This document shows positions 8,603 to 53,246 of a DNA stretch of 64,000 bases, in pieces. Numbering within the stretch: position 1 is the first letter of the stretch; each line of letters starts with the position of its first letter. The notes under the pieces are model-generated. The model had not been told where the DNA came from, searched no databases, and saw only the letters and a list, made by a program, of their open reading frames with translations. The position numbers were made by a program, and so were the translations under genes. Source of the stretch: Escherichia phage PSa2; the sequence record OL770310; one strand, written 5' to 3'.

Positions 8603-9355
8603 TTACACCTTCCCCATATCCTTAAAGATATCGTAGAATGCTTTAGACTCTGGTGAGCGAACGTTGTCGATCAGTTCGATCATAGAGAAAGGAGAGTTTT
8701 CGTACTTCTCATAGACTTCCATAAGAAGTGCTAGACCTGAATCACCCTTGATGTCTTTCTGAGCTATATCCCCACAGATAATTAAACGACAATCTTGTCC
8801 TACACGAGTCAGGAGACAGATCATTGCTTCAACGGAGATATTCTGAGCTTCATCGACAATAACATAGGAGTTGTTGAAAGTTCGGCCACGGGCATGTTCG
8901 ATAGCCAGGAATTTGATTTTCTGACGTTCGACATATCCTTTGTAGGCGTGATCACCGATTGCCCATTTCATGCCATCGGCTATTGGTTCCAACCAAGGCT
9001 CTAGCTTTTCTGCTAGATCACCTGGGAGCATACCAAGAGATTTACCTAGAGGTTCGTTCGGACGCACGAGGATCACTTGCTCAATATCTGAGTGAATGTC
9101 TACGAGTTCCTGAGCTGCAATAACGGATGGAATAAAGGTTTTACCAGTACCTGGTTCACCAATACCCACAGTCACTGTGTTGTTCTTGATCATATTGATA
9201 TATGATTTTTGCTCACGGTTTTTACCAACTAGGGATTTAGCAACTGGATTGGCGTAATCACCAGAGAAATCTGCTTGAATTACGTTACTCTCATACTTGT
9301 TGCCACGCTTTCTTGAACCATTGCGGTTCTCTCTTTTTTGACGTGCTTTTCCCAT
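8603..9355 (-). CDS. phoH: PhoH-like ATPase
   Basis: Walker A GEPGTGKT, Walker B IVDEAQN. The ATG at 9355 is preceded by AGGAG; the track start at 9364 is a GTG. Confidence 0.85.
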   Translation of the reverse strand: MGKARQKRENRNGSRKRGNKYESNVIQADFSGDYANPVAKSLVGKNREQKSYINMIKNNTVTVGIGEPGTGKTFIPSVIAAQELVDIHSDIEQVILVRPNEPLGKSLGMLPGDLAEKLEPWLEPIADGMKWAIGDHAYKGYVERQKIKFLAIEHARGRTFNNSYVIVDEAQNISVEAMICLLTRVGQDCRLIICGDIAQKDIKGDSGLALLMEVYEKYENSPFSMIELIDNVRSPESKAFYDIFKDMGKV

Positions 9356-9428
9356 AAATAACACTCCTATAGTGTACTTCGCTAACAGAGGATCAACAAA
9401 AAGATCTTGTTTATCAACTTACAAATAT

Positions 9429-9457
9429 ATTATACCAATATATGCGGGAGAAAGCAA
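9429..9457 (-). promoter_or_regulatory. sigma70-type promoter for phoH operon (TTGCTT-N17-TATAAT)
   Basis: Reverse complement reads TTGCTT, 17 nt spacer, TATAAT, then ATATATTTGTAAGTTGATAAACAAG resembling the plus-strand leader module. Confidence 0.55.
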
Positions 9458-9649
9458 CTACAATTTTAAATAAGCCTATGATATTGCATTTAAATAAAAA
9501 ATTTGCTTGCTTTTATTGGGAGATGTATGGTACTAGATAATCATTTTATATCGCGTACACGGGCGCGTGATTATACTATTTTTAATAGAGGTTGGCAAAT
9601 AAAATTTTTTGACTCAGATCAATTTACAGAATGTTATAGTAAAATATTG

Positions 9650-9678
9650 TTGACATCCGCCTTCGAATGAGTTATAAT
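9650..9678 (+). promoter_or_regulatory. consensus sigma70 promoter upstream of nrdD (TTGACA-N17-TATAAT)
   Basis: Perfect -35 and -10 hexamers with 17 nt spacer; AGGAGGG SD at 9697..9703, ATG at 9708. Confidence 0.65.
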
Positions 9679-9707: not shown

Positions 9708-11582
9708 ATGAATCGCAATGAAGAACTAAAGTATAAAGGAATGCAGTCCTTGATTCGAAACTGCAAAGAAATTATCGAAGGTTCAGCAGATGAAGAACTG
9801 CTGTTTAATAATGCCAATAAGCCCTCAGAACGTTTCCCTACACAAAGGGACATGCTTGCAGGGGAATTGAGTAAATATCTGATTCTGGAAGAAATGCCAA
9901 TCCAGATTCGAAATGCTCACATGATTGGTGATATTCACTTCCATGATGCTGATTACGCTGCGTTAGGTATGACTAACTGTTGCCTGGTTGCTTTGGAAGA
10001 TATGTTGAAAAACGGTATGAAGGTTGGTAATGCTGAAATCAGTACGCCAAACTCCATTACTACTGCGGCTGCTATTACAGCTCAGATTATTACTCAGGTT
10101 AGCTCCCATCAATATGGTGGTACTTCTGTAGACCGATTAGATGAAGTACTGGCTCCTTATGTTCGTAAGTCTTATGATAAGAATCATGCGTTTGCAAAGC
10201 GTTGGACTAAGGATGAAGCCAAAGCATCTGTAATGGCTACGGAAATGACTGAGAAAGAAGTTTACGATGCCTGTCAAGGTCTAGAGTATGAAATCAATAC
10301 GATGTTCAACTCTAATGGTCAGAGTCCATTTATTACCTTTGGTTTTGGTCTAGGAACTTCCTGGGAAGCACGTCTTGTACAGAAAGCAATCTTAGAAGTG
10401 CGTATGGATGGTTTGGGTATCAATAAACGTACAGCTATCTTCCCTAAACTGGTATTTGTTTTGCGTGATGGCGTAAACATGAAACCTGGTGATGTTAACT
10501 ATGATATCAAGAAGTTAGCTATGAAATGTACTGCTGAACGTATGTATCCTGACTACATCAGTTATGATAAGGTTGTAGAAGTTACGGGAGACTACAAAGT
10601 CTCTATGGGCTGTCGTTCATTCCTGGCTGCTGCGGAAGATGGTGAAACTTCTGGTCGTAACAACTTAGGCGTTGTTTCCGTAAACCTTCCTCGAATCGCT
10701 ATCGAAGCGGAAGGAAATATTGATCTATTCTTCGATCTGCTTGAGCTGCGTGTGGATACCGCGTTAAAAGCATTGGAGTGGAGGGTTGATCGCTTAAAAT
10801 ACATTCAAGCTAAAGCTGCGCCCATCCTCTATATGTCAGGAGCCTTTGGATTACGTCTGGGACCCGATGAATATGTATTTGATCATTTCTACAAGCGTGC
10901 TTCTGTATCTCTAGGATATATTGGTTGCCACGAAATGTTGCAGCTCATGTTTGGTAAAGATGTAGATACAATGTCTGAGTCTTGTATCAAGTTCGTTCAA
11001 CGTGTGCTACAATATATGCGTGATCGTGCTGATCAGAAGAAGGAAGAGACTCAATTAGGTTATAGTCTGTATGCTACACCATCTGAATCTCTATGTGATC
11101 GCTTTTGTCGCCTAGACCGTGAGTATTTCCCAGAGCATGAAGATATTCTGGCTAAAGGATATTACACTAACTCCCATCACCTTGATGTAGAACGTAAGGT
11201 TGCTCCAAACGTGAAGTTTGATTATGAGTCTAACTTTACCCCTATTGCTTCTGGTGGGTGCATTTCCTATGTGGAACTACCGGATATGAAACGATTCCCA
11301 GATGCGCTGGAATGGGTTATTAACTATGCCGCAAGTAAAGTTCATTACTTCGGTATTAATACTCCAGTAGACTCTTGTGGGGAATGTGGGTTCTTGGGTG
11401 AAACTATAGCTTCTGAGGATGGTTTCAAATGCCCTATTTGTGGCAACCATGATCCTGAGACTCTTGAGGTAACTCGTCGAGTTTGTGGCTATCTTGGAAA
11501 TCCAGGTGCTCGTCCGTTTAACCCAGGTAAACAACATGAGGTTATGGGTCGAGTGAAACATCAGGACATTCGCGCTAAATAA
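9708..11582 (+). CDS. nrdD: anaerobic ribonucleoside-triphosphate reductase (class III)
   Basis: 624 aa; C-terminal glycyl-radical motif (RVCGYLG) and zinc-ribbon cysteines (CGECG...CPICG). Confidence 0.9.
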   Translation: MNRNEELKYKGMQSLIRNCKEIIEGSADEELLFNNANKPSERFPTQRDMLAGELSKYLILEEMPIQIRNAHMIGDIHFHDADYAALGMTNCCLVALEDMLKNGMKVGNAEISTPNSITTAAAITAQIITQVSSHQYGGTSVDRLDEVLAPYVRKSYDKNHAFAKRWTKDEAKASVMATEMTEKEVYDACQGLEYEINTMFNSNGQSPFITFGFGLGTSWEARLVQKAILEVRMDGLGINKRTAIFPKLVFVLRDGVNMKPGDVNYDIKKLAMKCTAERMYPDYISYDKVVEVTGDYKVSMGCRSFLAAAEDGETSGRNNLGVVSVNLPRIAIEAEGNIDLFFDLLELRVDTALKALEWRVDRLKYIQAKAAPILYMSGAFGLRLGPDEYVFDHFYKRASVSLGYIGCHEMLQLMFGKDVDTMSESCIKFVQRVLQYMRDRADQKKEETQLGYSLYATPSESLCDRFCRLDREYFPEHEDILAKGYYTNSHHLDVERKVAPNVKFDYESNFTPIASGGCISYVELPDMKRFPDALEWVINYAASKVHYFGINTPVDSCGECGFLGETIASEDGFKCPICGNHDPETLEVTRRVCGYLGNPGARPFNPGKQHEVMGRVKHQDIRAK

Positions 11583-18439: not shown

Positions 18440-18468
18440 TTGCTTTCAGGAAAAATTTTCTGTATAAT
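18440..18468 (+). promoter_or_regulatory. early promoter module (TTGCTT-N17-TATAAT)
   Basis: -35 18440..18445, -10 18463..18468, leader AGATTCATAAATTTGAGAGAGGAG, ATG 18500. Confidence 0.65.
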
Positions 18469-36513: not shown

Positions 36514-36520
36514 CAATAAA

Positions 36521-36555
36521 CCCCAGTGGACAATCCACTGGGGTTTTCTTTTATT
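36521..36555. terminator. bidirectional rho-independent terminator at the early/late convergence point
   Basis: CCCCAGTGG-ACAAT-CCACTGGGG hairpin flanked by an A-run and TTTTCTTTTATTT. Confidence 0.75.
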
Positions 36556-36792: not shown

Positions 36793-39744
36793 TTACGGTA
36801 GTTCTGTAATTGTTGGAGCATTTCCGTTAAGCATTGATTTTACAAGGTTTTTCAGTTCATATAACTCATTGCGTAATACGTTAATTTCCTCCTGTTGATT
36901 ATCAATCTTTGCTTTTTGCTCTTTGAATGCGTTAACAAGAAGTGCGACAACACCATTATAGTTAATGCCTTTGATTGCCTCGCCTTTTGGGTCTAGCTGA
37001 CCATCGTTATTCAAAGAATGAACCGCTTCCGGCAAAACCCTTTCAACATCTTGTGCGATCAATCCAGCCTCAATACTATAAACGCTGTTTTCATCTTCAA
37101 TTAGATTGTTGCGCTTGTAGTAAGTATAACCAGTTAGATAATCAATTTTGTCGGATGCCGTTTCGATCTCTTTTAGATGTGCTTTTAATCTAATGTCAGA
37201 CCTGCTAACCCAATTTGATGCGCTACCATTTCCAGCACTATCAAAAACAAATTCAGCGCCATTAACATAAAGATGTGTTTCAGCGCCGCCAGAAGTCCAC
37301 GGAACAACATCCATGCCAGCTATCCAATCTTTCCCCCAATAAACAGATTTAAATATGGCAACCGCAGAATCAAATCCAGTGTGCTCAACAAGCAATCCAG
37401 ACGCACGACTACGCCAGTCGGCAAATAAACCACCCTCAACTTGACCAGCAATAAGAGCGTTTGGATAACCGCGCCTAACTCCATTTACATACATACCCCT
37501 TGCGTTATCATCAACATAAGATGATATGACCCTGTAAGTGTTTATTCCTGATGGAGTCCATGCAAATATTCTCGCTGAATCAGCAAACGCGCTTATGTGA
37601 CCATCACGATCCCATTTAAGACCTGAATCATGATCCCCAATTGCTATAGAGTAATCACCAAGAGCCGATTGAGCATCCGGACTTAATAACATCAATTGCC
37701 TATCAGATCTTGCTATCCTGTACCATCCACCCCAAGAGCCAGCACTACAAATGATACCCCATTTATTACCGTTCATTGCGGTTGCAACAATATTTCCATA
37801 CTCAACATGACCGTTTGCATTTTTACCGTGAACATGCAATTCATACATCCACCAACCAGAGGCTTCAGGTGGTTGATATGTAACAAGTTCTCCGCTTGAG
37901 TAATAACCGCTTTCTGCGTATGTTGACATAAACCCAAGAATGTTTGAATTATTAGGAATAATAATTGCTTGACCACCAACAGGAGTATTTAAGTTCTTTC
38001 TTGCTCCAACTTCAGTATTAGATCCAGTGCCGCCAGCATCAATTGAAAGAGGAATCCATCTTTCAGTTTCATCAGTCCAAACACCCCACGCCGCATCAGG
38101 TCTAATTGTGATTCGATAAGGTGAGTTACTCCCTGGTGCATACATCATAGTTTCTGTTTCTGTTTGCTTTAAACGATCAATGCCAAAGTTTATTTTTGCG
38201 CCCTCAACGTTTTCAGCACCAGTACCGCCAGCACCAATAGAAAGCGCAGATGTGCTGTTATTGTCATTACGCGCAACGCGCCATTCCCCATTGTTAGCGA
38301 TCCGTAATTCATAAGTCCATGCAGGATTACGAAAAGAATTATAAGCGCCAGCATATTGATCTTTTACAGAATTAACAGCCTCAACTTTTAGCGCCTCCCT
38401 TGCAAGGTCTTTGTTTGCAAGATCATTAAGATTCTGATCCTTCTTTAACGACGCTTGCATAACCTGTTCTGCTGATGCAGCCGCTGTCTCCGCTCTATCT
38501 GCTGCACTGGTGGCATTAGTAGCTTTCTCTCCTGCTATTGTAGCGCTACCAGCGGCCTCCAGGGCCTTGTCTGTTGCTGTCGTTGCAGCAGTAGTGGCGG
38601 TATTTTTAAATACCTCTGCTTCGTCTCTGTAGCCTTTGGTTGTGGTCATCGCTTGCGTAGCTGTATTCGCACTACCTGATGCACTTTGCTGAGCTAGCTT
38701 AGCAGCGTCTTCACTAGCTTTTGAGTTAATTTCACTAGTCTTTGTATTAGTTTCTGAGTTTTTTGCTGCTAATGCTGATGTGGAGGCTTGTGCAGCGAAT
38801 GCTTCTGCTTCATCCCTGAATCCTTTGGAGTCAGAAGCAGAGGCAGCGGAATCAGCAGCATTAGTCTCACTAGTTTTTGCTGCTGCTGCATATGCTGCTG
38901 CATTAGTCTCACTAGTTTTTGCATTAGTCTCACTAGTTTTTGCATTAATCTCACTAGTTTTTGCTGCAGCTGATGATTCTATAGCAGTAGTTTCACTAAT
39001 TTTTGCTGCAGCTGATGATTCTGCAGCTTTAGTAGCGGATGCAGCAGATTGAGAAGCAGAAATAGCAGACTGAGAAGCAGAAGCTTCAGAAGCTTCAGCA
39101 GAAATAGCAGATTCATTCTCAGAATTCTTAGCATTAAGTTCTGAAGTCTTAGCAGCTATCTCGGAGTCTTTTGCAGTAGTAGCGTATTCTCCCGCCTCTG
39201 TAGCAGAACCAGCAGCAGCAATAGCCTGATTGGTAGATTCAGTAGCAGATGTAGCAGCATTTTGCTCAGAAGTAGCAGCAGCAGTCTTAGCAGCCTCAGC
39301 GTCCTTCTTAGCTTGTTCAGCTAATAGACGACTCTGTTCAGCATTTTGTGCAGCAAGTTCAGCAGAATCACGGAATCCTTTGGATTCCTCAGCTGACGTA
39401 GCAGAGGCATCAGCACTATCTTTAGATAAACCAGCTTGTCTCTCCGCTTCAGTAGCAGAAGCAGCAGATTGAGTTGCAGAAGTTTCTGAAGAGTTAGCGT
39501 AAATTGCAGCTAGGTTCTCCGAGTCCTTAGCATTTGTTTCAGATTCTTTTGCTGCAATTTCAGAATCTTTTGCTGCTGCGGCAGAAGCAGCAGAGGCCTC
39601 AACAGCCCCTGTTAGTTCACTAGCAGTAATAGAACTAATAGAAGTACCTAAAACTACCGTATACTTAGGATATTTACTAGCAGTAGTTGTAGTGTCATCT
39701 ATGTTCAGAATCTGCTGTACAATAATTTTAGTTTTAAGTGCCAT
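36793..39744 (-). CDS. side (L-shaped-type) tail fibre with C-terminal intramolecular chaperone domain
   Basis: 983 aa; Ala/Ser/Thr-rich repeats (SETNAKTSETNAK), then SRSDIRLKAHL...chaperone-like C-terminus (S74-type SDxRxK motif). Confidence 0.75.
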   Translation of the reverse strand: MALKTKIIVQQILNIDDTTTTASKYPKYTVVLGTSISSITASELTGAVEASAASAAAAKDSEIAAKESETNAKDSENLAAIYANSSETSATQSAASATEAERQAGLSKDSADASATSAEESKGFRDSAELAAQNAEQSRLLAEQAKKDAEAAKTAAATSEQNAATSATESTNQAIAAAGSATEAGEYATTAKDSEIAAKTSELNAKNSENESAISAEASEASASQSAISASQSAASATKAAESSAAAKISETTAIESSAAAKTSEINAKTSETNAKTSETNAAAYAAAAKTSETNAADSAASASDSKGFRDEAEAFAAQASTSALAAKNSETNTKTSEINSKASEDAAKLAQQSASGSANTATQAMTTTKGYRDEAEVFKNTATTAATTATDKALEAAGSATIAGEKATNATSAADRAETAAASAEQVMQASLKKDQNLNDLANKDLAREALKVEAVNSVKDQYAGAYNSFRNPAWTYELRIANNGEWRVARNDNNSTSALSIGAGGTGAENVEGAKINFGIDRLKQTETETMMYAPGSNSPYRITIRPDAAWGVWTDETERWIPLSIDAGGTGSNTEVGARKNLNTPVGGQAIIIPNNSNILGFMSTYAESGYYSSGELVTYQPPEASGWWMYELHVHGKNANGHVEYGNIVATAMNGNKWGIICSAGSWGGWYRIARSDRQLMLLSPDAQSALGDYSIAIGDHDSGLKWDRDGHISAFADSARIFAWTPSGINTYRVISSYVDDNARGMYVNGVRRGYPNALIAGQVEGGLFADWRSRASGLLVEHTGFDSAVAIFKSVYWGKDWIAGMDVVPWTSGGAETHLYVNGAEFVFDSAGNGSASNWVSRSDIRLKAHLKEIETASDKIDYLTGYTYYKRNNLIEDENSVYSIEAGLIAQDVERVLPEAVHSLNNDGQLDPKGEAIKGINYNGVVALLVNAFKEQKAKIDNQQEEINVLRNELYELKNLVKSMLNGNAPTITELP
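38858..39027. repeat. tandem 21-bp coding repeats inside tail-fibre gene
   Basis: GCATTAGTCTCACTAGTTTTT at 38858, 38900, 38921, variant 38942; adjacent duplicated TTTTGCTGCAGCTGATGATTCT. Confidence 0.8.
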
Positions 39745-40166
39745 TATTGAGTTACTCCATCGCTGATGTATACTTTACCTTCCATAATACGGAAAGAATT
39801 GACTTCAGAGCCAATTACATCACGAGTCATTAGGATATCATAATAACCAGCAAAACGTTGTCTTGGGTTATACTTATCACGTTCTTTAGATGCTTTTTCA
39901 CCAATATTAGTAGTGTCTGCAATGGAAAGACTAATTGCAGCAGCACCTTGAGCAGCATCAATAACATGAGTTTTAAAATTAGCTAGAACCTCGGCGTTCT
40001 CATCTAAACTAGATTTAATAGTTCCTCTGAGTGAATACCCTGTCAAGTTAACAGGAAATTCTGTTGGCGGATATACGCTATCATCAACATCCATAAATTG
40101 CATGATAAGACTATAAGGCACTTTCTCATCAACAACAATATCAATAACTCGGTTTTCTGTACTCAT
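39744..40166 (-). CDS. small tail structural protein (collar-type by position)
   Basis: 140 aa ORF between the fibre and baseplate genes. Confidence 0.45.
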
Positions 40167-40171
40167 TATAA

Positions 40172-42229
40172 TTACCTTATATGGATATAGCCACTATTTA
40201 GGTCTATCTTCATCTTGTAGTATGCTTCAGGGTTTCCTGATAACGCAGCATTTCTATCGTAGATTATATTAACACCTATTTGTGATAAGAAGGCATTTCC
40301 TGCCACAATCTTATCAGCAGTTACAGTTCCATTAACAATCATGTTGCCATGAAGAACCATTGCAGGGTTAATCCATCCAGCCCCGTTCCATTGACGGGTA
40401 AATGCTGTTTGTGGAGCATTACTGTTAAATTGTGTTAGAACATCGTATTTAACCGGAGGTTTTCCAAAGTTATTTTGAAAGAATGCGTTAGCTTGTCCAT
40501 CATCCCAACCGCCTAATCCAGGAATACCCATGGAGTACATCCCAGGACCACGCTGTCCATCATGTCCTATAGTACCTTCAGTACCACTCCATTGAACTAC
40601 ATCAGACCAGCTAGTACCTTCAAGAAGTTTGTTAGTAACTGGATCAAGTGTACCTGTAGTCGCATAGATATTTTGTGTCATATCTGTACGATTAGGTGGA
40701 GTTTTTGACCAACCAGGAGGTGGATAATCTTGTTCTAACGGTTTGGCCGGTAAAGATGTTGCTAACTTATAAACAAATACTGTTTGCTTACCTTGTAAAC
40801 CAGTTCCAATATCTACGTCACCATTTGGTGTTCCAATTACTACACCACTAGAAATACGCAGAGTAGTACCATCATAACGTATCCATTGTGTAGCATTACC
40901 AATATCTAACTTAGCTTTGGCAGAGGTATTATCCATACCCATCCAAATACCAGAGTTATTATCTCCCCAAGATTTACCTTGAGTATAAATTGCTGGATTA
41001 TCTTTACCAGATAAGTTAGTCATGATAAAGTTCGCAGCATTAATATCTCTAGTAATTACTTTACCATCGACGTTAACAACACGATTTATAGGGTCGAAAG
41101 AAATAGGTGCTTTTCCTTCTTCATCTAGCAGACCAATGTTAATAGCACCAGTAGCTGCATCAATTAAGAATGTCTGTCTCCAGATTTCTCCATCTTTCAT
41201 ACTACCCTTAATAAAGGCATAGTTAACATCAATACCAGTCTCATTGACAAAACTATTATCTAGAGGAGTATCTTCATTCAATATAAATGTTACAGGAGCT
41301 GATTCTGTTATATCTTGCTTATTTGGTCCCCAGGCAATTGATGAAACCTTAAAGGTATGTTCAACTTTCCATGGGAATGATATAATCGTTGCAGCTCTAG
41401 CAGCACCCACGTTTATCTTTTGAGCTTTAGCCCATCCGGTTTTAGCGTATTCCTCGGAGTTTATATAAGTAACCAAGAACTCACGAACGTTAGCACCAGC
41501 ACCACGTTCCCAGTCCCACTCAATTCTAACATCATATCGTTCTTTACCATCAGCAATTCGTGCAGCTTTAAAAACAATATCGATAGGTGCAGTAGGAGGA
41601 ACAAAATTATAAGCTACAGTTAGAATATTAGGGAACTCATAGTACCCAGAAGAATCAACTGTAACACCATCAGGCATAGTTACTTGACCAGATATTCTGA
41701 TCTTATAGTCTCCGATAGGAACTCCACCAAATTTAATAGTAGAACCTAAAGCCCCAATATAATATTTAGTCCAAGGACTGTCTTCAGTGGCTGTACTTTT
41801 TAACTCAATAGTACAGTAACTTGCTTCACCAGTTGTTTCCACAACAACTATCGGTGCGCCCACCCCAACATCCACAGGTTCTGACTCAGATCTTGCTGCA
41901 ACAATTATTGGCTTCTCTTTTGTTTTAAAGTTAGTTTCATTAGAGAGGTTAATACCAATTTTTGCATTTAAAAGTTCTGAGTCAATAATTGAGTCATAAA
42001 AAGCTCCCTGAACCTGATAGGTAGTTGAGGGAGCTAAATTATTGATCATAACAAAGAAAGTGTCGATTCCAGTGAAATCTCTTCTATCCACTTCTTCGCC
42101 AAGTTTAAGCCAGAATGATCTACCGATAACATCGTAGTCGGTATAGATAGAATGCTGGATATACGCCATCGTATACCCAGTCATAATACTATTTAAGACC
42201 ATCTTGGCTGGTGCATTATTCGAAATCAT
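40172..42229 (-). CDS. baseplate/central fibre protein (pb4-like by size and position)
   Basis: 685 aa, Gly/Thr/Asn-rich, downstream of the hub gene. Confidence 0.55.
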
Positions 42230-45079
42230 TTAAATAGATGCCCAATCCACAGATTGCTCGCCATTATCACCTTCTGCTCTTATACGGAAGCGTAACTTCC
42301 TATTAATACCTAGAGCATCCTCATTATGAAGAGCATAGTCTGCCTTATTGTATATCAGTAGATAATCGTAGACATACTGATCTTCAATTCGTACACTTCT
42401 TAATAAACGATCTAGGTTATCGTAGATTTCGAGAGTGTAGAAGATTCCATCAATGATATCTTCTTCTGGAATTCTATCCCAGGCCAACTTAACGTCTGGT
42501 CCTACAAACTCCGAAGCATCTCCTGAAGCTGTATTAGTAACCCTGAAGTTACTAACGACGCTTAAGTTTTTAGCAGAGTTAAGTTCTACTGATAATGTTA
42601 CAGGGGAACTTCGTCTACCATTAATATCTACAGCTCTAATCTCAAAGACTGCTAAACCAGCAGGTTCTCCAATAATTTCTTGGATCATTCGTAGATTTGG
42701 ATTAGTTTCTAGTTGCTGTACGATATAAGGATCAGCATGTCCAGAATGAACGATGGAGTAATAAACAACGTTATTAGTTAAGCTAGGAAGCCAAGATAGC
42801 TCACCATTCTTACCAATAGACCCTACTTGTCCACCTGGTGTTGGTGTATACATAAAGTCTCTGGGAGGCAGTACGTTATTACTAACATCAGGGATATCGT
42901 TACCACTATTATCAACCTGCTCGGAGTTAATGAACACATCCTCACCATACTCTTGCAGTGTAATATTAATCTTACCTTCTCTAGAGTTTTCAACTTCATC
43001 AACTAGGAAGTATTTCTTGTCCCAACCATAACGACCATATGTAAAAGCAATCGGATCGTTAGGCTCAATGCCTATGAAATGATATGGTAATGAGAATGTG
43101 AGAGTTCGTGAGTAACGAGACTTTTTCAGTTCTCTATCTGCAAAGCTACGCGCAGTATAGTAGTTAGTGATGTTTGCAAAAGAAAGCTGAAGTTTTTTAT
43201 CTAACCCTTTATCTTGCTCCTTAAATATAGAGTTAAAGAATGTAATGGAGTTAGTTTTCCAGCTTAATGCGGGATCTAGTATAGAGGCCTGTACTGAGTT
43301 AAACTTATTTCTACCAGTAGTATCTGATAGCTCCAGATCACCATAGGTATCTAAGAAGTCAATCTCCAGTGGAGTATTCGAGAACTTCTCAACAGTTATT
43401 CTATACTGACCAGATAAGTTGTTGATAGCACCTCCATAAGACTCTATTAATCCCTGCACGTTTTTAAATACTGACTCAGAGGTATCGAGAATAGTGTTCA
43501 TTTGAACTATTTGTCTATTCTCCACTACAGCATCAGTCCATCCAACGTATCTCCAATAGGGTTGCCAAGAAACCTGATAGGATTCATCAATAATATCTAG
43601 AATAGCTGCTTCTTGTATAAGTTGCTGGAGAGGGAACTGGTCAATAGTGATATTAGCACCATAGCGATCAGAGGTTAGGTAGTCCAGAGTTTGCCAGATA
43701 CCATTTAAGCTAGTCTTATCAGCAGTTACCCTACCATCTGAATGATAGATCTTAATCTTCTTGCCTTGAACTTCAGCACTAACTTCTGGAATTTCTGTTC
43801 TGTTTTCATTAATAGTAAAGCGAACGATAGCATAAGCAGTATCTAATAGCTTATAACGAGAGTCCCAGTATTCCGGTCCATTCTCGTTTAGGTTCTGTAG
43901 GTAGAAACCTTTCTCTTTTGCAATGTTAACTAGAACATCCGCAGCAGATTGATCTGCTTTACCATGATAAGTCCAGATACGGATATCGCCATTACCATCA
44001 TTATACTTATATTCCTGTCCATGAACAGAAGGTTCAGAGCTTGGTTGACCAGAAGCAATACGTTGCATGGTATCGCCAGCTACTTTCTTAGTACCAAAGC
44101 AAGTTCGAGACTTACTATCATTAGGATCAATACAGATCATTGGTACATCACCAAAGTAGAAATCTAGGAATCCATCAATCTCACCCTCACAGAAAGCGTA
44201 TACTACATATACTATATTAGGGTTATGTAGTTCAGTATCTGCAAATACTGGGATTCCAGGAATTTTCTGAACTCCGTACACTACTGGAAGGAATTTAGCT
44301 GCTAAGTTAAAATCAAGATCGACTTCCTTAGTTACAGTCTCATAGTATTTCTTTAGGCTATAGCTTCTAGAAAGACCAAATAACTTTTTCTTAGATTGTA
44401 ACTTATAACGTTCTTCCTGAACCTGATACTTAGCAAGGATAGAAATACTCTTGTTAGCGTGGAAGAATCCGTAGTCCTCTTGGTATTCAGGTCGCTTAGC
44501 ACCATTAGATGGAACTAATTGTCCGGCAACAATCTCAAGCCCTCTATGGTCAGCATCATCTGTGAAACGTCCATTTACTCTATCAAAGTCATAGAATTGG
44601 TTTGAACAGTTCCATGTAATAACGGATGTACTAACTCCCGAAGTACCAATGTTATCCTTAATACCACCACCAGTGATTTTACCACGGAAGTAAAGTAAAG
44701 GACCATTAGTGTCTGGATCTACAGGAAGAATGTTACCTTCTTCATCAATAACCGCTTGATGGATTGAGATAGATCTATCCAGGAAGGATACACCATTTTG
44801 GACTAGTTTTAATACTTCATCCTCAGCAGTACCTGTGATAGTAAAAGAAAGGCTACCAATGGAAAGTTTTCTATTTTGTTTATGTGTTGTTATAGACTTA
44901 ACTTTACCGGATGTGTAAAGAATACCATTGTAAATTACATCCCTAAAATAGTCTGTAAGATAAATGTATGCAGAACTTGATCCGGTAGAGCTTGGCAATT
45001 CAAGAGTAATAAGGCGTGCAGTTTTTATTTTATTATTAGTTCTTAAATACTCTCTTGCACTGTCAAGAATTTTCTTCAT
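42230..45079 (-). CDS. baseplate hub / tail tip protein (pb3-like)
   Basis: 949 aa protein immediately after the distal tail protein and tape measure. Confidence 0.6.
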   Translation of the reverse strand: MKKILDSAREYLRTNNKIKTARLITLELPSSTGSSSAYIYLTDYFRDVIYNGILYTSGKVKSITTHKQNRKLSIGSLSFTITGTAEDEVLKLVQNGVSFLDRSISIHQAVIDEEGNILPVDPDTNGPLLYFRGKITGGGIKDNIGTSGVSTSVITWNCSNQFYDFDRVNGRFTDDADHRGLEIVAGQLVPSNGAKRPEYQEDYGFFHANKSISILAKYQVQEERYKLQSKKKLFGLSRSYSLKKYYETVTKEVDLDFNLAAKFLPVVYGVQKIPGIPVFADTELHNPNIVYVVYAFCEGEIDGFLDFYFGDVPMICIDPNDSKSRTCFGTKKVAGDTMQRIASGQPSSEPSVHGQEYKYNDGNGDIRIWTYHGKADQSAADVLVNIAKEKGFYLQNLNENGPEYWDSRYKLLDTAYAIVRFTINENRTEIPEVSAEVQGKKIKIYHSDGRVTADKTSLNGIWQTLDYLTSDRYGANITIDQFPLQQLIQEAAILDIIDESYQVSWQPYWRYVGWTDAVVENRQIVQMNTILDTSESVFKNVQGLIESYGGAINNLSGQYRITVEKFSNTPLEIDFLDTYGDLELSDTTGRNKFNSVQASILDPALSWKTNSITFFNSIFKEQDKGLDKKLQLSFANITNYYTARSFADRELKKSRYSRTLTFSLPYHFIGIEPNDPIAFTYGRYGWDKKYFLVDEVENSREGKINITLQEYGEDVFINSEQVDNSGNDIPDVSNNVLPPRDFMYTPTPGGQVGSIGKNGELSWLPSLTNNVVYYSIVHSGHADPYIVQQLETNPNLRMIQEIIGEPAGLAVFEIRAVDINGRRSSPVTLSVELNSAKNLSVVSNFRVTNTASGDASEFVGPDVKLAWDRIPEEDIIDGIFYTLEIYDNLDRLLRSVRIEDQYVYDYLLIYNKADYALHNEDALGINRKLRFRIRAEGDNGEQSVDWASI

Positions 45080-45690
45080 AGACTTTCCCTCAAGGAAAGT
45101 GAAATACCAGTATATGTACCATTACTATTTAACGTAGAGCCGAAGCTGTCTCCGTTCATTAATTTAGTTCTAAATAGAATACCATTAAATACCGGTTTCT
45201 CACTACCCGTAGTAGTAATGAATAGATCAGGGTAAACACTTATATTCCAAGTATTTCCTACTGTGTTGATAGAAGTGATTTTGTACACTTTTGGGTGGTT
45301 GGACAATTTAAATAAATCGCCTGGTTTAGGCAGTCCACGAAGTGTACCTTTAGTGTCCATAATAACTGTTGAACCTTTTTGTCCAGCAGGAATATTTACA
45401 GCACTAGTATCACCACGAACTCGGAAAGCTTCATATTGCGGTAATAACACATCAATATAGCTACCTGTTCTTTTGTAATCTAGAATGAATGAATCTAATT
45501 TAGCAAATTCATCTGGGAATAATTCTGGATAAGAGATATTAATACCCCAATATTGAGCAGACACCTTAACCTCCCTAACTTTACCATTAGGTAATTCATC
45601 ACGAATCATAGGGTCATTGTCTACTAAGTTAACGCTTTCAAAACCTAACCCTGATAGCTCTGGGTTCGTGTATGGGTCTGGTAGTCTCAT
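45076..45690 (-). CDS. distal tail protein (pb9-like)
   Basis: 204 aa ORF directly downstream of the tape measure gene; ATGA overlap with the hub gene. Confidence 0.55.
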   Translation of the reverse strand: MRLPDPYTNPELSGLGFESVNLVDNDPMIRDELPNGKVREVKVSAQYWGINISYPELFPDEFAKLDSFILDYKRTGSYIDVLLPQYEAFRVRGDTSAVNIPAGQKGSTVIMDTKGTLRGLPKPGDLFKLSNHPKVYKITSINTVGNTWNISVYPDLFITTTGSEKPVFNGILFRTKLMNGDSFGSTLNSNGTYTGISLSLRESL

Positions 45691-45716
45691 AGTTAATTTC
45701 TCCTCTTAATAACAAT

Positions 45717-45745
45717 ATTATAATAGGATTGGAAAATTTTATCAA
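45717..45745 (-). promoter_or_regulatory. sigma70-like promoter inside late region (TTGATA-N17-TATAAT)
   Basis: Reverse complement: TTGATA, 17 nt spacer, TATAAT, then AAGAGGAG SD and ATG at 45690. Confidence 0.45.
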
Positions 45746-45759
45746 GAAATTTTTATTTT

Positions 45760-45792
45760 TCCATAAAGAAAAGGAGGACATAAAGTCCTCCT
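45760..45792 (-). terminator. rho-independent terminator after tape measure gene
   Basis: AGGAGGAC/GTCCTCCT hairpin followed on the minus strand by TTTCTTTATGG. Confidence 0.6.
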
Positions 45793-45798
45793 CCAGTA

Positions 45799-48700
45799 TT
45801 AAGAATTACCAAGTGATTTCAGGGTGGTTCCATTCTCATTAAGAGCCTGTTCCACGGCATCCCTGAAAGCAGCACTATTGCTCGAAGCAAAATCTCGGAA
45901 GCTAGCCGCATCCATCGTACTAATGTTCAGCACAATAGGTCTACCCGATGTACCTTTTGAAGATCCTTTGAGTTCATCAGTAGGAGTAGCCTTCATTGGA
46001 ACCATAGGAGTGATTACTTCGGTACCGTGCTCACCCATCTGGTAACTAACTCCAGGATACATATTACCACCTTCTGCACGAGGTACGAAAGAGTTCGCAT
46101 TACCAATCCCTTGATCTCCTCGAATATAAGAAAGTTCACCTGCGTTAGCCGACATAGAAACGTCTACGTTCTTCTGGCGCTCTCCAAGAGTTAAGTAACC
46201 AGCCGTCTCAGCACCCGAGTCCCCAATAGAAGACATACCAGATGCAGAGGATGCTTGAGCAAGAGCCATAGCACCTGCTAAACCAGCTGCAACCATCAGA
46301 GGAATAGAGAATGGATATGGAACAGCTGTTGCTGCTTGCATCACCGCTACTGCCGTCTGGATAATGATTTGCTTCTTAGCTGCATCTTGCTGGATCTTGA
46401 GCTTTTCAGCCTCTAACTTCTTGATCTTAGCTTTGGATTGCTCAGATTTACCATCACGTTTCTGTTCTGCTGCAATAGCTGCATCAATAGCACTTACCTG
46501 TTGACCAACACTATACTGAATCATTGAAGATACAGTTTGCATACCAGCCGCTACTAGAGAGGTAGTATCCAGAGACCCTTGAGAGAACTGGATCATAGAG
46601 TTAGTTAAATTACCCATGCTTTGAGCTACAGCAGTTGCTTCGGAATTTAACTCAGATAGTTTAGAAATTGCTTGGTCATACGAAGACATCCTATTCTGCA
46701 TATCAGCAAAATCTTTATCTGCTCCAGATAGGCCAGTTGTAGGAGTATAAGTAGCTCCAACAGAAGAACCTACCTGTTGCTGCATCTGAGCATTACGTTG
46801 TGCTGTTAAAGCTGACATCTGAGCCCTTGTCTTAGCTATTTCAGCATTCCAGCGCATTTGCTCGTTAGCATTACCTTTGGTAAGTTCTTTCATCTGAGTA
46901 TAAAAATCTAACTGCATTTCCATTTTCTGCATTTCCCCTGCCAGAGGGAACAGGGAAGTTAGAGTATTTTCAAAGGCTTCTTGCCTTTTACTGGTCATTT
47001 CAGCTTGCTGGTCCTGACGGAATTTCCATATTTCACGTTCAATTTGGGCTTGAGAACGTCTAGACTGTTCAGCCTCTTTCTGTTTATCAGCTTGTTTTGT
47101 ATACCATTCGTACTTCTCTTTTTCAATGGTCAATTCAAGATTTAACTGTGCTAAACGATATTGAGTATCTGTCATAGTACGGTTATTCAGGAGAGCAATT
47201 TCACGATCAACACCAAGAATCTTATCGGTATAGTCCTTAACCTTCTTCTGAGCTTCCATACCCTGGTTAGTGATCTTAATACGTTCTAGCTGAATCTTAG
47301 CTATTTCACCTTCGATTGCTTTGTTACCTTTGTTAGTTTCTAGGACACGCTTAAGAGCTGCTTCCTGTTCTTCTAACTGTTGGATTTCCAGACGTCTACC
47401 AGCTTCCTGTGCTTTCTCTTTATCCTTAGTCTGGTTATACACTTCGGCAATCTTCTGCTGAACTTCTAACTGATTCTTAGTCTCATTACCAGTTAATTTT
47501 ACATAACCAGCAAGAGCTTGAGAAGCAGTCTTCATCTCACTAAGAGTATTATATCCTAAGTTCAGGCTCTTAACATACTCATCAGCATTTTTACCAGTAC
47601 CAGCAGAAAGAGACTCAATAGTCTTAATCGTATCTGATAGGGATGCACTAGTTTTAGCCGCAGTATTAGTATTCTGAGCGATGTTCTGGATATCGTTAGC
47701 TAAATCACTAGCAGTTTTCTTAGCCTGATCATATGCTTTCTGCTGTTCTGTCAGTCCTTTCAGAGTTGCAGAGTTGAAGTCATAAACCGCATCAGGGTCA
47801 TTTGCATCTTTCTGTAGGTTAATTTGCTTCTGGAATTCTGGATTAGCCTTAGCAGCTGCAGCACCAGCAGCTTGGTATGCCGATTTCCATGCATTAAGAT
47901 TGCCAGTTGAATCCTCTACTTCCTTATCAAGACGCTCTACCTGGAGAGCTAATGCAGCAGTATCTGCAATAAATTTCTGGTTTTCTTCAGAAGATCCTAT
48001 GCGAACTCCTCCTACTTCAAAACCTCCTGCAGCTAACCCTACCGGTGCACCTTGAGCAACTAAACGAATAGCCCCTGCTGTAGATGCATCTGCTTGCTGC
48101 ATACGCTTATCTAGATCAGCTTTTAACTTATTACGCTTTTCTAGAGATTCTTTGTACATATCAAGAGCTTTATTATATCCTTCCTCAGAAGCGGAAAGAC
48201 TTAAAGCTACAGCACCAACGTTAGTTGGATCAATCTGGCGGTTAGTTTCTTCCTGTGCTCTAGCAGCAGAAGCCGAGATAGACGCTTGAGAAGTATAGAA
48301 TACTGCGTTGATAGAATCAATTACCGGCCCTAAATACTTAGCAGCAGCCTGTTGAACTTTTCTCAGTGCAGCATCAGCGTTAGCAGCAAACTGTTCCCAC
48401 GGAGTTGCACGAAGTACGTCATCCAGATAGCCGAAACGTTTAGTAGATTCAGCGATTACTGCGTTAGCATATGCTTGTTGCTTTTGGAAAGTAGAAAGAC
48501 TATTGACGTTATACGTAATACCTGTGTTAGCAGCATTTAACTGTTTAACGTAGTCAGCATATGCATCGTTAAGACGAATAGTAACACCAAGTTCATCTAG
48601 AAGTTCGATTTCTTGCTTAGATACACCCTTGATTACACGGTTAAGTGCATCAGTCATATCAACACCAAGAACAGCAGCAGCACGACGAGCTACTAGACCA

Positions 48701-49509
48701 AATTTATTAAGTTGTTCAGCATCGAATCCATATGCAGAAGCAGAGGATGCCTGTCTCATTGCTTCTTCGAAGGAGATTGCATAACCAGCGGCCTCTTGTA
48801 GAGATCTAGCTAGGGTTTGTACAGGAGTACCTGTTTGAGTACCAACAATAGTACCAAACTTCTCAAGACGGTTTAACTGGTCACCCATCTTAAGTTGTTC
48901 GAATGCAGATTGTAGAACGAACACGTTAGATGCGATAGCAGCATACATAAGAGGTAAACTACCCCCCACTTTAGCCATTGCTGCGAAGTCACGAGTAGCA
49001 CCACGTGCTGAACCAGAAGTATTACCAATTGCACGACTAGCACGCCCTGCAGCGGTAGTTGTATCATTAAAGCCTCTAGCAGTATTACCTAGTGCTCGGT
49101 TAGTATCATATAATCTATCTTGAACTTTTTCAGTTGCAGCAGCTACATCATTACCAATCGCCTTAACAGATTTACCAACGTGTGTAAATCCAGATTCTAG
49201 CTTATCGGATACCTCGATCATAGCAATAGCAAGGTCATCTAACTTAGCACCAATACTATCCATAGATTTGGTGATGCCCATCATACCTCTGCTAGCCTGC
49301 ATTTTAGTTAGACTTTTAGCTGCTCTATCCGCCGCCCTCTCAATGGAGTAAAGAGTTTTGGGCATTTTTCCTAACTGTTCATTAGTCAGTTCGGAAGCGG
49401 CAGCAGCATTTTCTAACGCATCGGAAACGTTCTCAATAGATTTTGCAGTACGGGTTGCCCCTTTCTGCTTTACATCTATAAGTAGTTCTCGTATTAGCTT
49501 ATCAGTCAT
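45799..49509 (-). CDS. tail tape measure protein
   Basis: 1236 aa, coiled-coil Ala/Gln/Lys-rich; size and position typical of a tape measure protein. Confidence 0.85.
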   Translation of the reverse strand: MTDKLIRELLIDVKQKGATRTAKSIENVSDALENAAAASELTNEQLGKMPKTLYSIERAADRAAKSLTKMQASRGMMGITKSMDSIGAKLDDLAIAMIEVSDKLESGFTHVGKSVKAIGNDVAAATEKVQDRLYDTNRALGNTARGFNDTTTAAGRASRAIGNTSGSARGATRDFAAMAKVGGSLPLMYAAIASNVFVLQSAFEQLKMGDQLNRLEKFGTIVGTQTGTPVQTLARSLQEAAGYAISFEEAMRQASSASAYGFDAEQLNKFGLVARRAAAVLGVDMTDALNRVIKGVSKQEIELLDELGVTIRLNDAYADYVKQLNAANTGITYNVNSLSTFQKQQAYANAVIAESTKRFGYLDDVLRATPWEQFAANADAALRKVQQAAAKYLGPVIDSINAVFYTSQASISASAARAQEETNRQIDPTNVGAVALSLSASEEGYNKALDMYKESLEKRNKLKADLDKRMQQADASTAGAIRLVAQGAPVGLAAGGFEVGGVRIGSSEENQKFIADTAALALQVERLDKEVEDSTGNLNAWKSAYQAAGAAAAKANPEFQKQINLQKDANDPDAVYDFNSATLKGLTEQQKAYDQAKKTASDLANDIQNIAQNTNTAAKTSASLSDTIKTIESLSAGTGKNADEYVKSLNLGYNTLSEMKTASQALAGYVKLTGNETKNQLEVQQKIAEVYNQTKDKEKAQEAGRRLEIQQLEEQEAALKRVLETNKGNKAIEGEIAKIQLERIKITNQGMEAQKKVKDYTDKILGVDREIALLNNRTMTDTQYRLAQLNLELTIEKEKYEWYTKQADKQKEAEQSRRSQAQIEREIWKFRQDQQAEMTSKRQEAFENTLTSLFPLAGEMQKMEMQLDFYTQMKELTKGNANEQMRWNAEIAKTRAQMSALTAQRNAQMQQQVGSSVGATYTPTTGLSGADKDFADMQNRMSSYDQAISKLSELNSEATAVAQSMGNLTNSMIQFSQGSLDTTSLVAAGMQTVSSMIQYSVGQQVSAIDAAIAAEQKRDGKSEQSKAKIKKLEAEKLKIQQDAAKKQIIIQTAVAVMQAATAVPYPFSIPLMVAAGLAGAMALAQASSASGMSSIGDSGAETAGYLTLGERQKNVDVSMSANAGELSYIRGDQGIGNANSFVPRAEGGNMYPGVSYQMGEHGTEVITPMVPMKATPTDELKGSSKGTSGRPIVLNISTMDAASFRDFASSNSAAFRDAVEQALNENGTTLKSLGNS

Positions 49510-49520
49510 TTATTTTTCCC

Positions 49521-49554
49521 AATAAAAAAGGCTCTGGGCAAATCACCCAGAGCC
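49521..49554 (-). terminator. terminator plus conserved leader upstream of tape measure gene
   Basis: GGCTCTGGG/CCCAGAGCC hairpin then TTTTTTATTGGGAAAAATAA-ATG; the 25-mer is identical to the one at 54527..54551. Confidence 0.6.
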
Positions 49555-52760: not shown

Positions 52761-53246
52761 TTATCTGCGAAGTGCCCTACGAGGTGGCTGATACCTCACT
52801 GTTACATTTATTTCCGCTAAACCATATGGGGCCAGTAGACCTTCATCTGTAGCTACTGAGGTAATGCTCATATCAGTTGCCTCACATGGGAAGGTCGATC
52901 CATTAGGTTTACTAACAGTATATTCTAAATTTCCACCTGTGTCAATGACGGTTTTTATGTCAGCTACGAGTTTTTCAAGTTGCTCTTGAATATCTGTTTT
53001 CTCTTTGTCATACACGAAGATTGGAAGTTCTAAAAACATCCACTGTTGGCCTGAAGGAAGATACTGCCCAGTTTCAGTTCCGATATGGACTGCCACATAA
53101 GGAAATTCTCGGATTTCCTCAAATTTATAAGTTTGACGAGAAACGTTTCCATAAAGGTTATTGAAATACTCGTCAGGTTGTGAACCATCCATTTGTGTGG
53201 CGATTCGGTCAACCACTGCTTGTGCAATACTTGTTCTGTGATCCAT
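52761..53246 (-). CDS. tail terminator / neck protein (by position)
   Basis: 161 aa ORF between capsid-proximal genes and the tail tube. Confidence 0.4.
   Translation of the reverse strand: MDHRTSIAQAVVDRIATQMDGSQPDEYFNNLYGNVSRQTYKFEEIREFPYVAVHIGTETGQYLPSGQQWMFLELPIFVYDKEKTDIQEQLEKLVADIKTVIDTGGNLEYTVSKPNGSTFPCEATDMSITSVATDEGLLAPYGLAEINVTVRYQPPRRALRR

What the first reader, a model, noticed from the sequence alone, without database searches (positions are those of the whole stretch)
45717..45745. Consensus-like sigma70 promoter inside the late structural operon
TTGATA-N17-TATAAT with a downstream AAGAGGAG SD sits between the tape measure terminator and the distal tail protein gene. An internal near-consensus promoter in a late module hints at separate or earlier expression of the distal tail and baseplate genes.
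Basis: seen in the sequence. Interest (0 to 1): 0.35.

Follow-up and report, generated by a model that had tools for sequence, protein, structure and literature searches.

The report
Known T5 late promoter PG25 orthologue
The motif is real and is the counterpart, in a T5-like phage, of the long-known T5 late promoter PG25, which restarts host-polymerase transcription of the tail-tip genes after the tape-measure terminator, so it is genuine but ordinary.

Summary
TTGATA-N17-TATAAT is present on the minus strand at exactly 45745-45717. An intrinsic terminator lies upstream and an AAGAGGAG Shine-Dalgarno 9 nt before the distal-tail-protein (Dit) ATG.

The window is a T5-like phage (Epseptimavirus, 99.8% identical to phage SuperGirl). 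The T5 GenBank record annotates the same spot as "promoter P-G 25". The 108-nt intergenic region is 106/109 identical to T5, although neighbouring genes are only 58-61% identical at third codon positions.

PG25 was found by Gentz and Bujard (1985). Primer extension in T5-infected cells showed late kinetics: transcripts appear at 30 min and then accumulate (Klimuk et al. 2020).

The terminator-then-promoter arrangement between tape measure and Dit is kept, with unrelated sequence, in Klebsiella, Vibrio and one further unidentified T5-like phage. In the window, the early-promoter signature (TTGCTW at -35 plus a downstream ATAAATT block) occurs 13 times, never in the late module, and is absent here.

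"Separate transcription unit" is supported; "earlier expression" is not. This is already known and of low interest.

The parts
45799..49509 (-). Tape measure protein gene (T5 pb2-like, 1236 aa), upstream neighbour
   Evidence: ORF; Pfam TMP_N and TMP_C; annotated as tape measure protein in related records.
45762..45794 (-). Intrinsic terminator: hairpin 45794-45770 (GGAGGAGGAC-TTTAT-GTCCTCCTTT) plus T-rich tail to about 45762
   Evidence: scan; fold -18.6 kcal/mol, z = -4.2; annotated as a terminator in the Stitch and Bf23 records; hairpin kept with changed stem sequence in L033, L035 and L038-L042.
45746..45760 (-). A-tract block AAAAATAAAAATTTC at about -50 to -36 (UP-element-like '-43 region')
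   Evidence: Sequence; 18/18 identical across the T5, Epseptimavirus and L009 clades; AAAAATT at -43 is described as typical of T5-like promoters (PMC3326045). Function inferred.
45740..45745 (-). -35 hexamer TTGATA (5/6 of TTGACA)
   Evidence: invariant in 29 of 32 aligned sequences (the window plus 28 loci); replaced by TTGAAA or TTGTAA in distant clades.
45723..45739 (-). 17-nt spacer AAATTTTCCAATCCTAT
   Evidence: 16/17 identical to T5 (C for A at -17, window position 45727).
45717..45722 (-). -10 hexamer TATAAT (6/6)
   Evidence: invariant in all 37 loci examined, including the Klebsiella and Vibrio phages and L035.
45691..45710 (-). Predicted transcription start (A at 45710, 7 nt after the -10) and 20-nt unstructured leader with SD AAGAGGAG at 45707-45700
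   Evidence: Start inferred from standard -10 to +1 spacing. Leader folds at 0 kcal/mol. The T5 form of the leader, with one more A, is the RBS of pQE-type vectors.
45076..45690 (-). Distal tail protein gene (T5 pb9-like, 204 aa), first gene of the unit
   Evidence: PDB 4JMQ, 7QG9 and 8HQZ at E 1e-117 to 1e-120.
36793..45079 (-). Rest of the predicted PG25 transcription unit: baseplate hub pb3-like (42230-45079), central fibre pb4-like (40172-42229), collar p132-like (39744-40166), lateral tail fibre (36793-39744)
   Evidence: ORFs; annotations of Stitch, T5, S114 and SuperGirl. Genes abut or overlap, and no convincing terminator lies between them.
36518..36546 (.). Bidirectional terminator hairpin (13 bp) closing the late unit where it converges with the early genes
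   Evidence: Its use as the end of the PG25 transcript is inferred.
49530..49554 (-). Terminator immediately upstream of the tape measure gene; no promoter between it and the ATG at 49509
   Evidence: a terminator is annotated at the same place in Bf23.
52917..52945 (-). Second late promoter, TTGACA-N17-TATACT, orthologue of T5 P-J5, inside the tail-terminator gene
   Evidence: T5 and S114 annotations; 76/79 identical to T5.

Best explanation
This is the orthologue, in an Epseptimavirus (T5-like phage), of T5 late promoter PG25. Host RNA polymerase carrying sigma-70 binds the -35 TTGATA and -10 TATAAT, 17 nt apart, probably helped by the A-tract block at about -43. It starts at or near the A at 45710 on the minus strand. 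The transcript has a 20-nt unstructured leader with a strong Shine-Dalgarno and encodes Dit, the baseplate hub, the central fibre, the collar protein and the lateral tail fibre, ending at the bidirectional terminator near 36520. The promoter directly abuts the terminator that ends the tape-measure transcript. Together they form a compact insulator-and-restart junction that uncouples tail-tip gene expression from the upstream tail-tube and tape-measure unit. Timing is late, as in T5. Shown here: the sequence elements, their position, their strong conservation, near-identity with annotated PG25, and the non-early class signature. Shown in T5 by others: recognition by E. coli RNA polymerase and late kinetics in vivo. 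Inferred: the exact start site, the extent of the transcript, the tuning role, and transfer of late timing to this phage.
For: The motif and its surroundings were read directly. The window is 99.8% identical to Escherichia phage SuperGirl. T5 record AY692264 annotates 'promoter P-G 25' at 83971-84045, abutting pb9; S114 labels the spot 'P-G 25 like'; Bf23 labels it a late promoter plus terminator. The alignment with T5 shows only three differences in the intergenic region. Window versus T5: intergenic 106/109, against 58-61% at third codon positions of Dit and TMP; it is the best-conserved gap of the late operon. The terminator-plus-promoter arrangement is kept with unrelated sequence in Klebsiella phages (L033/L034), the unidentified L035, and Vibrio phages pVp-1, River4 and phi 3. 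PMC7472727 reports PG25 and PJ5 primer-extension products from 30 min, accumulating afterwards and classed as late; the promoters were originally identified in vitro by Gentz and Bujard 1985. All 13 early-type TTGCTW-N17-TATAAT sites in the window lie outside the late module, and this promoter lacks both that -35 and the downstream ATAAATT block. Promoter regions in general are 72-79/79 identical between the window and T5, so this level of conservation is what functional promoters of the family show.
Against: There are no transcript data for this particular phage. The start site, timing and strength are carried over from T5, which differs at -17 and by one A in the leader. A single 11/12 match is not statistically remarkable on its own. 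The efficiency of the upstream terminator is unknown, so some Dit expression could come from read-through. How a near-consensus sigma-70 promoter stays silent early in infection is unknown even for T5 (PMC7472727).
Confidence: 0.9

Rival explanations
1. The promoter gives the distal tail and baseplate genes earlier (early or middle) expression than the rest of the structural module.
For: It is near consensus and would be recognised by unmodified host polymerase. PG25 works outside infection as a constitutive promoter in heterologous hosts. Nothing in the sequence by itself enforces late timing.
Against: The T5 orthologue, identical at 78 of 80 aligned core positions, shows late kinetics by primer extension. 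The early-class signature (TTGCTW at -35, downstream ATAAATT block) is absent, while it marks 13 promoters elsewhere in the window and none in the late module.
Confidence: 0.05
2. The roughly 190-nt conserved island is kept uniform mainly by recombination or gene conversion. On this view it is a module-junction cassette like the promoter-stem-loop cassettes of T4-type phages, and promoter function is secondary.
For: The island of near-identity extends about 55 nt into the TMP 3' end and about 25 nt into Dit. L015 is a mosaic whose TMP end is T5-like and whose Dit is L011-like, with the switch inside the island. Upstream and downstream clusters occur in several combinations.
Against: Distance-matrix correlation across the island (r = 0.78) is no lower than elsewhere in the region (0.63-0.92); the real dips are inside TMP. 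The island is single-copy in the window. Other promoters are equally conserved. The TMP_C protein domain partly explains the conserved TMP 3' end.
Confidence: 0.03
3. The motif is a chance match in an A+T-rich gap, and Dit is transcribed only by read-through from upstream.
For: Promoter-like sites are no more frequent than in shuffled sequence. About 2.4 sites with at least 11/12 matches are expected by chance in the window.
Against: The gap is 97% conserved against about 60% at synonymous sites. Independent lineages have a different promoter sequence at the same place. The T5 orthologue is experimentally active. A strong terminator immediately upstream would otherwise starve the downstream genes.
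Confidence: 0.02

Closest known systems
Bacteriophage T5 late promoter PG25 (Gentz and Bujard 1985; annotated in AY692264 at 83971-84045)
   Same: Same position between the pb2 (tape measure) terminator and pb9 (Dit). Same TTGATA-N17-TATAAT, same A-tract block, same SD. 78/80 identical over -60..+25 and 106/109 over the whole gap.
   Different: C instead of A at -17 (45727), and the leader is one A shorter (AAG versus AAAG). The host phage belongs to a different genus (Epseptimavirus versus Tequintavirus). No transcript data exist for this phage.
T5 late promoter PJ5 (orthologue in the window at 52945-52917)
   Same: Same temporal class in T5, same strand and module, non-early -35 type, 17-nt spacer.
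   Different: It lies inside a coding sequence (the tail terminator gene), has TTGACA/TATACT, and has no adjoining terminator or dedicated leader and SD.
T5 early promoters such as PN25, PN26 and PK28a/b (orthologues in the window at 18440, 19472, 21864 and 21771)
   Same: Host sigma-70 dependent, TATAAT at -10, 17-nt spacer, A-tract at -43, whole-region conservation.
   Different: In T5, PN25, PN26 and PK28a have -35 TTGCTW and PN25 and PK28a also have the downstream ATAAATT block; PK28b (TTGACA/TATACT) has neither. The promoter studied here has TTGATA and lacks the block, and it sits in the late module. Timing in T5 is early versus late.
Promoter-stem-loop regulatory cassettes of T4-type phages (recalled from memory: Arbiol et al. 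2010)
   Same: A compact terminator hairpin plus promoter unit that is much better conserved than its flanks.
   Different: It is single-copy here, late rather than early, and shows no excess of recombination across it.
RBSII, the ribosome-binding site of pDS/pQE expression vectors
   Same: The T5 form of this leader, ATTAAAGAGGAGAAATTAACTATG, appears verbatim in primers for pQE-type vectors. That RBSII was derived from the PG25 leader is my recollection and was not verified here (one search found nothing).
   Different: The window's leader has one A fewer. In the vectors it is joined to a PN25-derived promoter, not to PG25.

Membership tests
Orthologue of T5 promoter PG25 | Lies between the tape measure (pb2) gene and the distal tail protein (pb9) gene, reading into pb9 | tested here: met
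Orthologue of T5 promoter PG25 | Sequence homology to the annotated PG25 segment | tested here: met
   78/80 over -60..+25 and 106/109 over the gap.
Orthologue of T5 promoter PG25 | Primary 5' end produced in infected cells with late kinetics | not testable with these tools
   Shown for T5 only (PMC7472727).
Sigma-70 (-35/-10) promoter | Two hexamers close to TTGACA and TATAAT, 17 +/- 1 nt apart | tested here: met
   5/6 and 6/6 with a 17-nt spacer.
Sigma-70 (-35/-10) promoter | Occurrence beyond chance | tested here: inconclusive
   The motif count alone is not beyond chance. Position in the gap (expectation about 0.0015) and conservation are.
Sigma-70 (-35/-10) promoter | Binding and initiation by E. 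coli sigma-70 holoenzyme | not testable with these tools
   Reported for T5 PG25 by Gentz and Bujard 1985, as cited in PMC7472727.
T5 early promoter class | -35 hexamer TTGCTW | tested here: not met
   TTGATA here; the 13 TTGCTW-N17-TATAAT sites in the window all lie outside the late module.
T5 early promoter class | Downstream ATAAATT-type block after the -10 | tested here: not met
   The downstream sequence is ATTGTTATTAAGAGG.
Intrinsic (rho-independent) terminator, upstream partner | G+C-rich hairpin followed by a T-run, stable beyond shuffles, conserved as a structure | tested here: met
   stems change but hairpins persist in L033, L035 and L038-L042.
Mobile promoter-stem-loop cassette (T4-type) | Multiple dispersed copies in the genome | tested here: not met
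   Single copy in the window.
Mobile promoter-stem-loop cassette (T4-type) | Recombination junctions concentrated at the cassette | tested here: not met
   No dip in the left/right distance correlation; one mosaic example only.

The most novel reading that the evidence does not exclude
Late promoters of T5-like phages, this one included, may be actively gated rather than default sigma-70 sites. On this reading, the almost invariant spacer, the region just downstream of the -10, and the flanks of the 190-nt island would carry the still-unknown determinant that keeps a near-consensus promoter silent until late infection. That determinant could be a site for a phage factor, and the TTGAYA/TTTACA -35 and the missing ATAAATT block would be part of a class code. 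My evidence does not exclude this. However, early promoters are just as conserved, which weakens it.
Probability: 0.1. Interest if true: 0.4.

Novelty: already known. Interest (0 to 1): 0.08.

Why it matters
It matters little beyond correct annotation. It shows that this phage keeps the T5 layout, in which the tail-tip genes form their own late transcription unit behind the tape-measure terminator. It also shows that this junction is conserved across Demerecviridae infecting Escherichia, Salmonella, Klebsiella and Vibrio hosts. The one open question it touches belongs to T5 biology in general and is not made more tractable by this locus: how near-consensus host-type promoters are held silent until late infection.

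Tried and rejected
1. Recombination hotspot or module-junction cassette. L015 is a mosaic that switches within the island, but the left/right distance-matrix correlation shows no dip at the cassette and the island is single-copy. Rejected as the main explanation.

2. An extra element hidden in the unusually conserved spacer and leader. Other promoters shared with T5 are equally conserved over -60..+25, so this one is not exceptional.

3. A known RNA family or small ORF in the island. Rfam gave only sub-threshold hits (E 0.3-0.7), and only ORFs of 30-47 aa overlap the gap.

4. Literature. No T5 transcriptome or time-course RNA-seq turned up in the held library. Gentz and Bujard 1985 and Zivanovic 2014 are not held. 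The derivation of RBSII from PG25 could not be confirmed. Figure S5 of PMC7472727 is held only as a legend.

5. An antisense promoter or a bidirectional terminator in the gap. The scan found none.

Full report
**Observation.** On the minus strand the sequence reads ...GGAGGAGGACTTTATGTCCTCCTTTTCTTTATGGAAAAATAAAAATTTC TTGATA AAATTTTCCAATCCTAT TATAAT ATTGTT ATTAAGAGGAGAAATTAACT ATG.
- TTGATA is at 45745-45740, the spacer is 17 nt, and TATAAT is at 45722-45717. The scanner scores it 11/12.
- AAGAGGAG lies at 45707-45700, 9 nt before the ATG at 45690.
- The hairpin at 45794-45770, with its T-rich tail, follows the stop codon of a 1236-aa ORF. It folds at -18.6 kcal/mol, z = -4.2.

**Is it more than chance?** Not on motif statistics alone.
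- Loosely defined promoter-like sites are as common as in shuffles: 45 against 44.6.
- Sites with at least 11/12 matches number 7 in the window against 2.4 +/- 1.5 simulated.
- The expectation of such a site on the coding strand inside this 108-nt gap is only about 0.0015 (my arithmetic).
- The comparative evidence below settles the question.

**What the window is.** It is a T5-like phage of the Demerecviridae, genus Epseptimavirus, 99.8% identical here to Escherichia phage SuperGirl.
- The 1236-aa ORF is the tape measure protein (Pfam TMP_N and TMP_C).
- The 204-aa ORF is the distal tail protein. It matches the T5 pb9 structures 4JMQ and 7QG9 at E about 1e-117.
- Downstream follow the pb3-like hub, the pb4-like central fibre, the p132-like collar and the lateral tail fibre.

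**It is already annotated and named.**
- T5 st0 record AY692264 marks 83971-84045, abutting pb9, as "promoter P-G 25".
- The Salmonella phage S114 record marks the same spot "P-G 25 like".
- The Bf23 record marks a terminator and a "hypothetical late promoter" there.
- The Stitch record marks the terminator.
- The window differs from T5 across the gap only by C for A at -17, one base just after the TMP stop codon, and one A fewer in the leader.

**Conservation.**
- Window versus T5: the gap is 106/109 identical, while Dit and TMP are 58% and 61% identical at third codon positions. It is the best-conserved intergenic gap of the late operon.
- The near-identical island actually runs from about 165 nt before the Dit ATG to about 24 nt after it. 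The conserved TMP_C domain partly explains the upstream extension.
- This degree of conservation is not special to this promoter. Most promoters shared between the window and T5 are 72-79/79 identical over -60..+25. This fits the AT-rich -43 and +1 regions described for T5-like promoters (PMC3326045).

**Distant relatives.** In T5-like phages whose Dit is only 49-63% identical, the intergenic sequence is unrelated but the arrangement is the same. The TMP stop is followed by a hairpin with a T-run, an A/T-rich stretch, a sigma-70-type promoter, a leader, an SD and Dit.
- Klebsiella phages (L033/L034) have TTGAAA-N17-TATAAT.
- L035, which I did not identify, has TTGTAA-N17-TATAAT preceded by TG.
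- Vibrio phages pVp-1 and the River4 group have TTGACT-N16-TATAAT preceded by TG.
- Vibrio phage phi 3 has TTGCAT-N17-TATAAT preceded by TG.
- The junction is thus a conserved transcription-unit boundary across these Demerecviridae.

**Experimental status of the orthologue.**
- Klimuk et al. 2020 (PMC7472727) tested promoters previously identified in vitro by Gentz and Bujard (1985), using multiplex primer extension on RNA from T5-infected cells.
[quoted passage not shown] Early transcripts appeared at 20 min and disappeared after 30 min.
- The same paper states that all three temporal classes are transcribed by host sigma-70 polymerase and that the switching mechanism is unknown.
- PG25 is also used as a constitutive promoter part in Cupriavidus engineering.

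**Class signature within the window.**
- Aligning the promoters annotated in T5 shows that many early ones are stereotyped: -35 TTGCTW, then TATAAT, then a block containing ATAAATT. PG25, PJ5 and the oad promoter have TTGAYA or TTTACA and lack the block.
- In the window, 13 TTGCTW-N17-TATAAT sites occur. All lie in the early regions and none in the 24-kb late module.
- The promoter under study and the PJ5 orthologue at 52945-52917 carry the non-early pattern.
- This is sequence-level support, from this phage itself, against early expression.

**Mechanism and layout.**
- The predicted start is the A at 45710. It gives a 20-nt leader with no secondary structure.
- Downstream genes abut or overlap, and the next convincing terminator is the bidirectional hairpin at 36518-36546. 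The predicted transcript is therefore about 9.2 kb.
- Upstream, the tape measure gene lies between two terminators (49554-49530 and 45794-45770) with no promoter of its own.
- I infer that transcription from upstream late promoters is attenuated stepwise, and that PG25 restores transcription for the tail-tip genes. That tuning role is inference, not shown.

**Rivals.** The recombination-cassette idea, a hidden RNA or ORF, and pure chance were examined and found weak.

**Verdict.**
- The feature is the already-known T5 promoter PG25 in a close relative, so novelty is nil and interest is low.

Noticed in passing
window 9570-9678, both strands: A perfect-consensus TTGACA-N17-TATAAT at 9650-9678 (+) lies upstream of nrdD (9708-11582). 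It faces the divergent sites TTGCCA-N17-TATAAT at 9598-9570 (-) and TTGCTT-N17-TATAAT starting at 9457 (-), upstream of a phoH-like gene (8603-9364). T5 annotates putative promoters at the orthologous places.
   Followed up: partly
window 18440, 19472, 21771, 21864 (+) and 1118 (-): These are orthologues of the named T5 promoters P-N25 (the 'T5 promoter' of expression vectors; 77/79 identical), P-N26, P-K28b, P-K28a (79/79) and P-H207.
   Followed up: partly
window, whole; early regions 1-36500 and about 62483: Many early promoters share a rigid pattern: AAAAnTTnnn, then TTGCTW-N17-TATAAT, followed by a block containing ATAAATT. All 13 sites lie outside the late module. Promoter regions from -60 to +25 are about 93-100% identical to T5, although genes are about 55-65% identical at synonymous sites.
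   Followed up: partly
window 45799-49554 (-): The tape measure gene is bracketed by two intrinsic terminators and has no promoter of its own, so it should be expressed only by terminator read-through. This would suit its low copy number.
   Followed up: partly
L015 1336-1525 (IMGVR_UViG_2706796320): This is a mosaic genome. Its TMP 3' end is T5-like and its Dit is L011-like, and a patch of about 190 nt identical to the window spans the terminator-promoter island.
   Followed up: yes
L027 about 1500 (IMGVR_UViG_2974606035): This public contig lacks exactly the 24 nt ATTAAAGAGGAGAAATTAACTATG, from +1 through the ATG, so Dit has no start codon. It is probably an artefact. Because that 24-mer is identical to the pQE-vector RBS, vector screening or trimming is a possible cause. 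That is speculation.
   Followed up: partly
L038-L041 about 1410-1500 (Vibrio phages pVp-1, River4 group): The leader between the promoter and Dit is about 90 nt long and contains a conserved hairpin, CCATTGA(n5-6)TCAATGG, just before the SD. The Escherichia and Salmonella phages do not have it.
   Followed up: no
window 45691-45710 (-): The leader is, apart from one A, the ribosome-binding site used in pQE-type expression vectors. From memory, that RBS (RBSII) was derived from the PG25 leader.
   Followed up: partly
window 1-64000: ARAGORN found no tRNA genes. The window therefore excludes the tRNA cluster typical of T5-like genomes.
   Followed up: no
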